The notes: a model not told the origin generated them from the letters alone. A stretch of 35,982 bases of DNA from Candidatus Micrarchaeota archaeon (GCA_964404695.1 CAYOKY010000001.1:1-35982); one strand, 5' to 3'. Shown: positions 12,395 to 12,556, counted from the first letter of the stretch. Numbers and translations: made by a program.

Positions 12395-12556
12395 GCCGAG
12401 GTAGCTCAGTTGGTTAGAGTGCCAGACTCATAAATTTTTATGAGTGATGAGCGTAATGCAATGATTAAAAAGGCACTCATTGGGGAATCTGGAAGTCGGG
12501 GGTTCAAGTCAGAACTCTTATGACTTTAGTGTTCTGTGAAAATCCCCCCCTCGGCA
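12395..12556 (+). tRNA. tRNA with anticodon CAT (elongator Met or Ile2), two introns, no encoded CCA
   Basis: Acceptor GCCGAGG/CCTCGGC is perfect. U8 A9; D arm GCTC-AGTTGGTTA-GAGT; anticodon arm CCAGA-CT CAT A...A-TCTGG; variable loop AAGTC; T arm GGGGG-TTCAA..AT-CCCCC; discriminator A. Intron 1 is 12433-12486 (54 nt, position 37/38). Intron 2 is about 12508-12541 (34 nt, in the T-loop, boundary +/-2 because of an A run). The mature length is 74 nt. A T6 tract follows. Confidence 0.85.

What the first reader, a model, noticed from the sequence alone, without database searches (positions are those of the whole stretch)
12395..12556. tRNA(CAU) interrupted by two introns, one at 37/38 and one inside the T-loop
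The 162-nt gene folds into a canonical 74-nt cloverleaf only if two segments are removed. One is a 54-nt intron (12433-12486) at the canonical 37/38 site. The other is a roughly 34-nt intron (about 12508-12541) within the T-loop, between positions 56-59. Intron 2 has an internal helix CAGAAC/GTTCTG (12510-12515 and 12531-12536), and intron 1 has ATGAGTG/CACTCAT (12440-12446 and 12474-12480). Both are compatible with bulge-helix-bulge-type presentation. Multiple and non-canonical introns are typical of certain archaeal lineages and co-occur with relaxed-specificity EndA; the candidate lies at 919-2058. G1:C72 argues against an initiator. Met versus Ile2 (agmatidine) cannot be decided by eye.
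Basis: partly seen in the sequence, partly recalled or inferred. Interest (0 to 1): 0.6.

Follow-up and report, generated by a model that had tools for sequence, protein, structure and literature searches.

The report
Two-intron methionine tRNA gene, Micrarchaeota
This is the elongator methionine tRNA gene of a tiny Micrarchaeota archaeon, split by two introns as is common in that lineage; its first intron also carries a conserved kink-turn guide aimed at the tRNA's own wobble base.

Summary
Window 12395-12556 (+) becomes a perfect 74-nt tRNA-Met(CAU) cloverleaf once two segments are removed. ARAGORN's default run and Rfam miss the gene.

- **Intron 1** (12433-12486, site 37/38) sits in a relaxed bulge-helix-bulge (BHB).
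- **Intron 2** sits in a strict 3-4-3 BHB. The mature T loop is then UUCAAGU.
- **Endonuclease:** ORF 919-2058 is a full-length homologue of the ARMAN-2 three-unit epsilon2 splicing endonuclease, with the catalytic triad and the broad-specificity lysine conserved. The RtcB ligase is present.
- **Identity:** elongator Met, not Ile2. TiaS was not found in 60 of 61 genomes of the order, and a tRNA-Ile(UAU) exists. G1:C72 argues against an initiator.
- **Beyond the finding:** intron 1 carries UAUGAGU-N-[NUGA]-hairpin-[NAU-GA]. This is a single C'/D'-type K-turn whose antisense puts C34 at the N+5 position. The layout is kept in 30 of 30 orthologues and matched in 150 of 301 Micrarchaeota genomes, so it probably guides Cm34.
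- **New detail:** an order-specific second antisense element pairs with nt 22-28.

This scan already noted the same self-targeting guide on other DNA, and Nanoarchaeum equitans is a published precedent. Verdict: a real, functional-looking gene and a new member of a known kind. No RNA evidence could be obtained.

The parts
12395..12556 (+). Elongator tRNA-Met(CAU) gene: three exons, two introns, no encoded CCA
   Evidence: The spliced product is a perfect 74-nt cloverleaf, which ARAGORN calls Met(cat). Orthologues occur in 60/61 relatives. It is single-copy in the assembly.
12395..12432 (+). Exon 1 (nt 1-37; C34 = 12429)
   Evidence: Read directly from the sequence.
12433..12486 (+). Intron 1, 54 nt, site 37/38, in a relaxed BHB
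   Evidence: H helix CUCA (12427-30) / UGGG (12481-84), 3' bulge GA|A (12485-87), 5' splice site inside a 9-nt bulge (12431-39), then a 7-bp helix. The H helix is paired in 88% of cells across 30 orthologues.
12439..12445 (+). Antisense element 1 (UAUGAGU), pairs with nt 31-37; G12442 faces C34
   Evidence: NNTGAGT + N + NUGA is found in 30/30 BLAST-found orthologues. It is part of the MFE fold in 25/30 precursors.
12447..12467 (+). K-turn module: D'-like AUGA (12447-50), hairpin GCGUAAUGC (12451-59), bulge AAU (12460-62), GA (12463-64), UU(A)
   Evidence: The layout is conserved in 90 sequences. Hairpin stem pairs 2 and 3 covary. The strict pattern matches 150/301 genomes of the phylum, with 0 hits for the reversed control.
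12472..12478 (+).
   Evidence: 15/30 orthologues have 7/7 pairs against 0.56 expected. It lies at a fixed distance from C'. Its R covaries with Y25. It is absent from the other orders.
12487..12508 (+). Exon 2 (nt 38-59)
   Evidence: Defined by the BHB cleavage geometry.
12509..12542 (+). Intron 2, 34 nt, site 59/60, in a strict hBHBh'
   Evidence: h = T stem GGGGG/CCCCC; H = UUCA (12503-06) / UGAA (12537-40); bulges AG|U (12507-09) and AA|U (12541-43); h' = CAGAAC/GUUCUG. The motif is unique in the window, with 0.025 expected. A congener (L002) has a strict BHB in the same register.
12543..12556 (+). Exon 3 (nt 60-73, discriminator A)
12561..12566 (+). T6 run 4 nt after the gene, likely the transcription stop
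   Evidence: Read from the sequence; its role is inferred.
919..2058 (-). Three-unit epsilon2-type tRNA splicing endonuclease (379 aa)
   Evidence: phmmer against PDB 4FZ2 (ARMAN-2 EndA): E = 6e-102, aligned over residues 2-379. Pfam tRNA_int_endo matches. K152, Y226, HSKH 241-244 and K272 are conserved.

Best explanation
The locus is the functional elongator tRNA-Met(CAU) gene of a Micrarchaeota archaeon. It is transcribed as a precursor of about 162 nt with two introns.

Shown from sequence and comparison:
- The three exons (12395-12432, 12487-12508, 12543-12556) join into a canonical 74-nt cloverleaf.
- Intron 2 (12509-12542, site 59/60) sits in a strict 3-4-3 bulge-helix-bulge built on the T stem.
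- Intron 1 (12433-12486, site 37/38) sits in a relaxed BHB: anticodon stem, 3-nt 3' bulge, 4-bp helix between nt 32-35 and the last intron bases, and a 5' splice site inside an enlarged bulge.
- The genome encodes the enzymes needed: an epsilon2 broad-specificity EndA 10 kb away in the same window, and RtcB.

Inferred:
- EndA cuts two bases into each bulge, and RtcB joins the exons.
- Intron 1 also acts as a self-targeting, single-K-turn (C'/D' 'half-mer') box C/D-type guide. L7Ae binds the AUGA-hairpin-AAUGA K-turn. The 7-nt antisense directly upstream pairs with nt 31-37. Nop5-fibrillarin then 2'-O-methylates C34, the nucleotide opposite the fifth base upstream of D'.
- The guide pairing and the BHB helix use the same anticodon-loop bases, so the precursor must switch from a guide conformer (the predicted minimum-energy fold) to the cloverleaf/BHB conformer before it can be spliced.
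- In this order, a second antisense element (12472-78) can pair either with nt 22-28 or with the guide, and may drive that switch.

My confidence is about 0.93 for the gene and splice model and about 0.6 for Cm34 guidance.
For: - **Cloverleaf:** obtained after removing both introns.
- **Strict BHB at intron 2:** unique in the window, 0.025 expected.
- **Relaxed BHB at intron 1:** seen in the constrained fold. The H helix is kept in 88% of cells across 30 orthologues, and the anticodon stem covaries.
- **EndA:** full-length homologue of ARMAN-2 epsilon2 EndA, E = 6e-102. The ASL lysine and the catalytic triad are conserved. That enzyme cleaves strict 37/38 and relaxed 59/60 substrates in vitro (PMC3239211).
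- **Ligase:** RtcB is present.
- **Identity:** TiaS was not found in 60/61 genomes of the order while the controls ring. tRNA-Ile(UAU) is present.
- **Guide module:** the antisense, the 1-nt spacer, NUGA, the hairpin and NAU-GA are found in 30/30 BLAST-found orthologues from 12 families. The exact pattern matches 150/301 genomes of the phylum against 0 for the reversed control. The hairpin stem covaries.
- **Proteins:** fibrillarin and L7Ae are present in the genome. Nop5 is present in 59/60 relatives.
- **Folding:** the MFE of the full precursor contains the guide:anticodon helix in 25/30 orthologues and the cloverleaf anticodon stem in 0/30. For this locus the energies are -55.9 versus -51.3 kcal/mol.
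- **Precedents:** a C/D-like stable RNA in the N. equitans elongator tRNA-Met intron (PMC3491384); Cm34 of archaeal elongator tRNA-Met guided by box C/D RNAs (PMC7994747, PMC4033218).
Against:
- Intron 1 lacks a proper h' next to a 3-nt 5' bulge.
- The guide duplex is only 7-8 bp, and there is a single K-turn. No box C lies 5' of the guide. The 3' 'CUGA' seen in some relatives is simply the BHB H strand, and it is broken here (CAUUGG).
- Nop5 was not found in this 84%-complete assembly.
- No Rfam family matches the intron.
- The 60 loci from other orders were collected with a pattern that fixes the guide spacing, so they are not independent evidence for that spacing.
Confidence: 0.8

Rival explanations
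1. The K-turn in intron 1 is not a methylation guide. It is either an L7Ae-binding structural or chaperone element that helps the precursor fold and be spliced, or the core of a stable excised sRNA that acts in trans on other targets such as initiator tRNA-Met or rRNA.
For: There is only one K-turn, the antisense is short (7-8 nt), and no C/D terminal motif exists. The N. equitans intron RNA is stable and abundant, yet its target was never shown. The antisense is invariant, so it offers no covariation test.
Against: The 1-nt spacing that puts C34 exactly at N+5 is kept in 30/30 orthologues found without reference to it. C34 of elongator tRNA-Met is a known box C/D target in Pyrococcus, haloarchaea and humans. 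A purely structural K-turn would not need an anticodon-complementary segment abutting the D' box.
Confidence: 0.2
2. Intron 2 is cut as the first reader proposed (about 12508-12541, site 58/59), which would give the mature T loop UUCAAAU.
For: UUCAAAU is a common T loop in intron-less orthologues. The epsilon2 enzymes tolerate relaxed motifs.
Against: A perfect 3-4-3 BHB in the 59/60 register predicts cuts at 12508|12509 and 12542|12543. The same register and the same UUCAAGU product occur in congener L002, and UUCAAGU is the T loop of the intron-less orthologue L015.
Confidence: 0.07
3. The tRNA is tRNA-Ile2: C34 is converted to agmatidine and the tRNA reads AUA.
For: The anticodon is CAU, with G1:C72 and A73. 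Sequence alone cannot separate Met from Ile2.
Against: The TiaS domain was not found in 60/61 genomes of the order (0 of 40 high-quality ones), while all four archaeal controls ring. A tRNA-Ile(UAU), whose acceptor stem resembles that of Ile(GAU), is present. The acceptor stem here (GCCGAGG) is unlike the Ile(GAU) stem GGGCCCA. A guide for 2'-O-methylation of C34 fits Met.
Confidence: 0.02
4. The locus is a decaying, non-functional tRNA pseudogene disrupted by insertions.
For: Standard tRNA finders miss it. In this genome the 3' end of intron 1 has a 2-nt insertion compared with its congeners.
Against: The exons give a flawless cloverleaf. It is the only elongator-type CAU tRNA in the assembly. 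Orthologues with the same intron occur across the class. Both junctions keep cleavable motifs.
Confidence: 0.03

Closest known systems
Disrupted tRNA genes of ARMAN-2 / Candidatus Micrarchaeum acidiphilum with epsilon2 EndA (Fujishima et al. 2011, PMC3239211; Hirata et al. 2012, PMC3488258)
   Same: Same phylum and the same three-unit endonuclease. ARMAN-2 also has introns at 37/38 and 59/60, both strict and relaxed BHB, multi-intron tRNAs (its pre-tRNA-Pro(GGG) has two T-loop introns), and 56% disrupted tRNA genes.
   Different: A different tRNA and a different intron combination (37/38 + 59/60 in tRNA-Met). Those papers do not describe a K-turn guide in the intron.
Stable C/D-box-like RNA in the 66-nt intron of Nanoarchaeum equitans elongator tRNA-Met (Randau 2012, PMC3491384)
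   Same: Also the elongator tRNA-Met of a DPANN archaeon, with a 37/38 intron holding C/D-type boxes and a GC hairpin.
   Different: The N. equitans RNA was drawn as a box C + box D sRNA and no target was assigned. Here only a D'-hairpin-C' K-turn is conserved, and the antisense points at the tRNA's own C34. This gene also has a second intron.
Intron-encoded box C/D dual guide of euryarchaeal pre-tRNA-Trp (Clouet-d'Orval 2001; Singh 2004; summarised in PMC7994747 and PMC4033218)
   Same: The intron guides 2'-O-methylation of C34 of its own tRNA. Guide pairing and BHB are mutually exclusive folds.
   Different: The tRNA-Trp intron has all four boxes (two K-turns) and two targets (C34, U39). The module here has one K-turn and one N+5 target.
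Trans-acting guides for Cm34 of elongator tRNA-Met: Pyrococcus sRNA, haloarchaeal sR-tMet (Joardar 2011), human SNORD97/SCARNA97 (PMC6601510)
   Same: Same target nucleotide and same chemistry. sR-tMet acts on the intron-containing precursor.
   Different: Those guides are separate genes. Here the guide lies inside its target's intron.

Membership tests
Archaeal BHB-intron-containing (multi-intron) tRNA gene | The exons join to a canonical cloverleaf | tested here: met
   74 nt; ARAGORN calls it Met(cat).
Archaeal BHB-intron-containing (multi-intron) tRNA gene | A BHB or relaxed BHB motif at every exon-intron junction pair | tested here: met
   Intron 2 has a strict hBHBh'. Intron 1 has h + 3' bulge + H, with its 5' site in a 9-nt bulge, i.e. 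a relaxed hBH-type motif.
Archaeal BHB-intron-containing (multi-intron) tRNA gene | The genome encodes a splicing endonuclease able to cut relaxed or non-canonical motifs, and an RNA ligase | tested here: met
   An epsilon2 EndA is at 919-2058. RtcB is at C17:1250-2557.
Archaeal BHB-intron-containing (multi-intron) tRNA gene | The spliced mature tRNA and the excised introns are observed | not testable with these tools
epsilon2 (three-unit) EndA | A single chain of about 380-395 aa that aligns end to end with ARMAN-2 EndA (alphaN-alpha-betaC) | tested here: met
   Residues 2-379 align with 5-387 of 4FZ2, E = 6e-102.
epsilon2 (three-unit) EndA | Catalytic Tyr/His/Lys and the ASL lysine (K161 in ARMAN-2) | tested here: met
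   FRLY226, HSKH241-244, SVRK272 and GTYK152 match the motifs around Y236, H251, K282 and K161.
Box C/D methylation guide RNA | A K-turn or K-loop with tandem sheared G.A pairs formed by a D/D' box (CUGA) and a C/C' box (RUGAUGA) | tested here: met
   At the sequence level only: NUGA-hairpin-NAU-GA in 90/90 sequences, with covariation in the hairpin stem. L7Ae binding was not tested.
Box C/D methylation guide RNA | An antisense directly upstream of D/D' with the target nucleotide opposite the fifth base | tested here: met
   G12442 faces C34 at N+5. The same holds in 30/30 orthologues. The duplex is only 7-8 bp.
Box C/D methylation guide RNA | Two motifs (terminal C/D plus internal C'/D') in one RNA | tested here: not met
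   There is no box C 5' of the guide. 'GUGAUGA' is not conserved, since the first D' base varies A/U/C/G. The 3' CUGA is absent from the minimal introns and broken here. The module is therefore a half-mer, not a canonical C/D sRNA.
Box C/D methylation guide RNA | The core proteins L7Ae, Nop5 and fibrillarin are encoded | tested here: inconclusive
   Fibrillarin and L7Ae were found. Nop5 was not found in this 84%-complete MAG but is present in 59/60 relatives, including both congeners.
tRNA-Ile2 (agmatidine) | TiaS is present in the genome or lineage | tested here: not met
   PF08489 matched in 1/61 genomes; the controls matched 4/4.
Archaeal initiator tRNA-Met | A1:U72 and three G:C pairs at 29-31:39-41 (definition from established knowledge of initiator tRNAs, not retrieved here) | tested here: not met
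   The gene has G1:C72 and the anticodon stem CCAGA/UCUGG.

The most novel reading that the evidence does not exclude
Intron 1 is a bipartite, intramolecular half-mer C/D guide. The antisense upstream of D' pairs with nt 31-37. A second antisense, 4-6 nt downstream of C', pairs with nt 22-28. Together they clamp 15 of 16 contiguous tRNA bases around one K-turn and unfold the D and anticodon stems. The same second element can instead pair with the guide itself, which releases the anticodon loop to form the BHB. On this reading the intron enforces an order, methylate C34 first and splice afterwards, through a built-in RNA switch, and the T-loop intron is removed in the same refolded state.
Probability: 0.3. 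Interest if true: 0.65.

Novelty: new member of a known kind. Interest (0 to 1): 0.4.

Why it matters
- **Annotation.** The gene is invisible to ARAGORN and to Rfam at gathering score. Without it this MAG would seem to lack an elongator tRNA-Met, so BHB-aware tRNA finding is needed for Micrarchaeota.
- **Enzyme and introns together.** The window holds a two-intron tRNA and its epsilon2 endonuclease 10 kb apart. This is one more example of broad-specificity EndA occurring together with disrupted tRNA genes.
- **A job for a tRNA intron.** The 37/38 intron of elongator tRNA-Met is conserved across the class and looks like a minimal, single-K-turn, self-targeting methylation guide. That would explain why the intron persists in genomes of about 1 Mb. 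It would also offer a very small natural system for studying half-mer C/D RNPs and the switch between guide and splicing folds.
- **New detail.** As far as I could find, the order-specific second antisense element has not been described.

Tried and rejected
- **Standard finders.** ARAGORN default, ARAGORN -i and Rfam at gathering score find nothing at the locus. Rfam in E-value mode gives only a partial tRNA hit and chance snoRNA hits at E of about 4-7.
- **Canonical four-box reading of intron 1.** I tried GUGAUGA as box C and the 3' CUGA as box D, with GGCRCU as a D guide targeting C27. I rejected it for three reasons. The first base of the 5' box varies A/U/C/G, and many orthologues lack the first GA. 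The 3' CUGA is really the BHB H strand; it is displaced by insertions in some families and absent from the minimal introns of other orders. GGCRCU keeps a fixed distance to C', not to the 3' end.
- **Lax BHB scan.** With G.U allowed and 4-bp helices it gave 241 chance hits in this AT-rich window and was uninformative. It was replaced by a strict Watson-Crick scan with shuffles.
- **Lax scan for further intron-bearing CAU tRNAs.** It was swamped by false positives, so I cannot say whether an intron-bearing initiator exists. A simple search for an initiator-type anticodon arm found none.
- **Paralogues.** BLAST of both introns against the genome found none.
- **Closed or missing sources.** Clouet-d'Orval 2001 (PMC92551) is not held, so what I say about tRNA-Trp rests on reviews.

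Full report
**What is in the sequence**

The stretch 12395-12556 (+) reads GCCGAGG-UA-GCUC...GAGU-G-CCAGA-CUCAUA | 54 nt | A-UCUGG-AAGUC-GGGGG-UUCAAG | 34 nt | U-CCCCC-CCUCGGC-A. ARAGORN with default settings and Rfam at gathering score find no tRNA anywhere in the window. The Rfam tRNA model gives only a partial 16.6-bit hit at 12402-12519.

With both segments removed, ARAGORN returns a flawless 74-nt tRNA-Met(cat). With only the T-loop segment removed it finds a tRNA but misplaces the intron and calls it Pro(cgg). With only the anticodon-loop segment removed it finds nothing. The gene would be missed by routine annotation.

**Splice sites**

I used the standard archaeal geometry: outer helix h, a 3-nt bulge on the 3' strand, a 4-bp helix H, a 3-nt bulge on the 5' strand, and an inner helix h', with each bulge cut after its second base. 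This rule places a canonical intron at 37/38 when h is the anticodon stem, and at 59/60 when h is the T stem.

- **Intron 2** fits the rule perfectly and with Watson-Crick pairs only. h is GGGGG/CCCCC. H is UUCA (12503-06) / UGAA (12537-40). The bulges are AG|U and AA|U. h' is CAGAAC/GUUCUG.
- Intron 2 is therefore 12509-12542, at 59/60, and the mature T loop is UUCAAGU.
  - A scan of both strands of the 36-kb window for motifs of this quality finds only this one. Forty composition-preserving shuffles give 0.025 per window.
- **Intron 1** has the anticodon stem as h, a GA|A 3' bulge (12485-87), and H = CUCA (32-35) / UGGG (12481-84). A 3-nt 5' bulge would leave an h' of only two A-U pairs.
This is a relaxed, hBH-type motif.
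  - Because A residues flank both junctions, cuts shifted by one base would give the same product.

**Enzymes and lineage**

ORF 919-2058 (-) aligns end to end with PDB 4FZ2, the three-unit epsilon2 endonuclease of ARMAN-2, at E = 6e-102. It keeps the motifs around the catalytic Tyr, His and Lys. [quoted passage not shown] Relatives of this EndA are titled Candidatus Micrarchaeota / Micrarchaeia; the best matches are 67% identical. RtcB is present. Within the genome, about a third or more of the tRNA genes detected carry introns, several of them longer than 100 nt.

**Identity of the tRNA**

- **Not an initiator:** G1:C72 and the anticodon stem CCAGA/UCUGG argue against it.
- **Not Ile2:** the TiaS domain was not found in 60 of 61 genomes of the order (0 of 40 high-quality ones), while it rings in all four archaeal control genomes.
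- **AUA is covered otherwise:** the genome has a tRNA whose anticodon is UAU once its intron is removed by the same BHB rule. ARAGORN then calls it Ile(tat), and its acceptor stem resembles that of Ile(GAU).
- **Conclusion:** AUA is read by tRNA-Ile(UAU), and this CAU tRNA is elongator Met.

**Conservation and what intron 1 contains**

BLAST found the locus in 60 of 61 related genomes. In 30 orthologues from 12 families, intron 1 always contains N-N-UGAGU, one spacer base, NUGA, a GC-closed hairpin (or a short loop), a 3-nt N-A/U-U/G bulge, GA, and then U/A-rich bases. This is the layout of a C'/D'-type K-turn. The NUGA element is directly 5' of the helix. The GA on the 3' side follows a 3-nt bulge, and a U.U pair follows the two G.A pairs.

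The hairpin stem covaries. All three counted pairs show double changes. In 90 sequences, pair 2 is C-G 80, G-C 7, G-U 1. Pair 3 is C-G 33, A-U 22, U-A 6, G-C 5, U-G 4, G-U 2.

The heptamer upstream pairs with nt 31-37. The fifth base upstream of NUGA faces C34 in 30 of 30 orthologues (in this locus, G12442 faces C12429). An exact pattern for this module hits 150 of 301 genomes sampled from the phylum (76 of 129 genera), with no hits for the reversed control. Fibrillarin and L7Ae are encoded. Nop5 was not found in this 84%-complete assembly, but it is present in 59 of 60 relatives, including both congeners.

C34 of elongator tRNA-Met is a known box C/D target in Pyrococcus, haloarchaea and humans. 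The N. equitans elongator tRNA-Met intron was reported as a stable C/D-like RNA. The most likely reading is that the intron guides 2'-O-methylation of its own tRNA's wobble base. It is not a canonical C/D sRNA, because there is no second K-turn (see Tried and rejected).

**Two folds**

The guide and the BHB H strand both pair with the anticodon loop, so the two folds exclude each other. RNAfold on the complete precursors puts the guide:anticodon helix into the minimum-energy structure in 25 of 30 orthologues, and the cloverleaf anticodon stem in none. For this locus the free fold is -55.9 kcal/mol and the cloverleaf/BHB-constrained fold is -51.3 kcal/mol. A refolding step before splicing is therefore implied, as is known for pre-tRNA-Trp.

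**A second antisense element**

In this order, a heptamer GGCRCUC lies 7-9 nt after the C' GA (here 12472-78). It is complementary to tRNA nt 22-28.

- 15 of 30 orthologues pair 7/7 with their own tRNA, against 0.56 expected with shuffled targets (maximum 3 in 200 trials). 22 of 30 pair at least 6/7, against 4.95 expected.
- Its fourth base follows tRNA position 25 (U25 with A, C25 with G). This includes a switch inside this genus: this genome has U25/A and both congeners have C25/G.
- Its distance to C' is fixed, while its distance to the intron end varies from 4 to 33 nt.
- It is absent from the minimal introns of about 48 nt found in other orders.

I read it as an order-specific accessory that may stabilise the guide conformer, or help toggle between the two folds. 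This is inference only.

**The second intron in relatives**

A T-loop insertion is present in the tRNA-Met gene of about ten of the 30 orthologues, from families f1, f2, f4, f5, part of f6, and f12. It forms a strict BHB in the 59/60 register in this genome and in one congener, and a near-strict or relaxed motif elsewhere. The two f10 genes (L010, L012) have more complex T-arm insertions that my parser did not resolve. Family f7 has a D-loop intron instead. The 37/38 guide intron is therefore old, and the extra introns are lineage-specific. Neither intron has a paralogue in this genome.

**Limits**

Splicing, the exact cut sites, L7Ae binding and Cm34 are all inferred. This scan had already noted the self-targeting K-turn guide in tRNA-Met introns of other DPANN genomes. 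I reached the same reading independently, and here I add its class-wide spread in Micrarchaeota, the second antisense element, and its combination with a 59/60 intron.

**Verdict**

This is a genuine, functional-looking two-intron elongator tRNA-Met gene with its epsilon2 endonuclease in the same window. It is ordinary for Micrarchaeota. Its first intron carries a probable function, which is the more interesting part.

Noticed in passing
G000 contigs C24:6554-6681, C38:1129-1305, C93:2298-2507, C100:333-527, C24:~10371-10470: Several long tRNA introns of this genome (up to about 130 nt, one of them a T-loop insertion) share a hairpin core CCTTTTCTTTGAAAAGA(AAGG). This suggests a family of related, possibly mobile, introns. 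The two introns of the tRNA-Met gene do not carry it.
   Followed up: partly
G000 contig C205 (1581 bp), 336-766: Five tandem tRNA genes (Ala with a 15-nt intron, Ser, Ser, Asn, Met) lie on a short contig at 34.7% GC. The CAU tRNA there has U1:A72, which fits neither a standard archaeal initiator nor the elongator. It could be an odd initiator, a viral tRNA array or a mis-binned contig.
   Followed up: no
L017, L018, L024 (family f7 orthologues): The tRNA-Met gene of this family has a D-loop intron (GCCCAGG-UA-ACUC-AG | ... | CCUGGUUAGAGU) in addition to the 37/38 guide intron, and no T-loop intron.
   Followed up: partly
G030:C11 22928-24757; G044:C1 431745-434116; G029:C39 34099-36459: In several relatives the nop5 gene lies within 1-2 kb of the guide-bearing tRNA-Met gene. 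This may be synteny or chance. It is not seen in this window.
   Followed up: no
G000 C56:6607-6732: ARAGORN -i misplaces introns and so mis-names anticodons. This gene is reported as Thr(tgt) but is Ile(tat) once the intron is removed by the BHB rule. Other intron-bearing calls (Pyl, SeC, Phe(aaa)) are probably wrong for the same reason.
   Followed up: partly
window 12518-12523: The loop of intron 2 contains TTATGA, the same hexamer as the core of the intron-1 guide (complementary to nt 33-38). No D-box-like element follows it, and the congeners lack it. It is probably chance.
   Followed up: partly
window 6906-16037: The tRNA gene sits among translation and RNA-processing genes: FttA/aCPSF1 (6906-8816), ProRS (8904-10310), Kae1/TsaD for t6A37 (10390-11373), DUF359 (11554-12069), class I LysRS (13809-15404) and TBP (15462-16037).
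   Followed up: no
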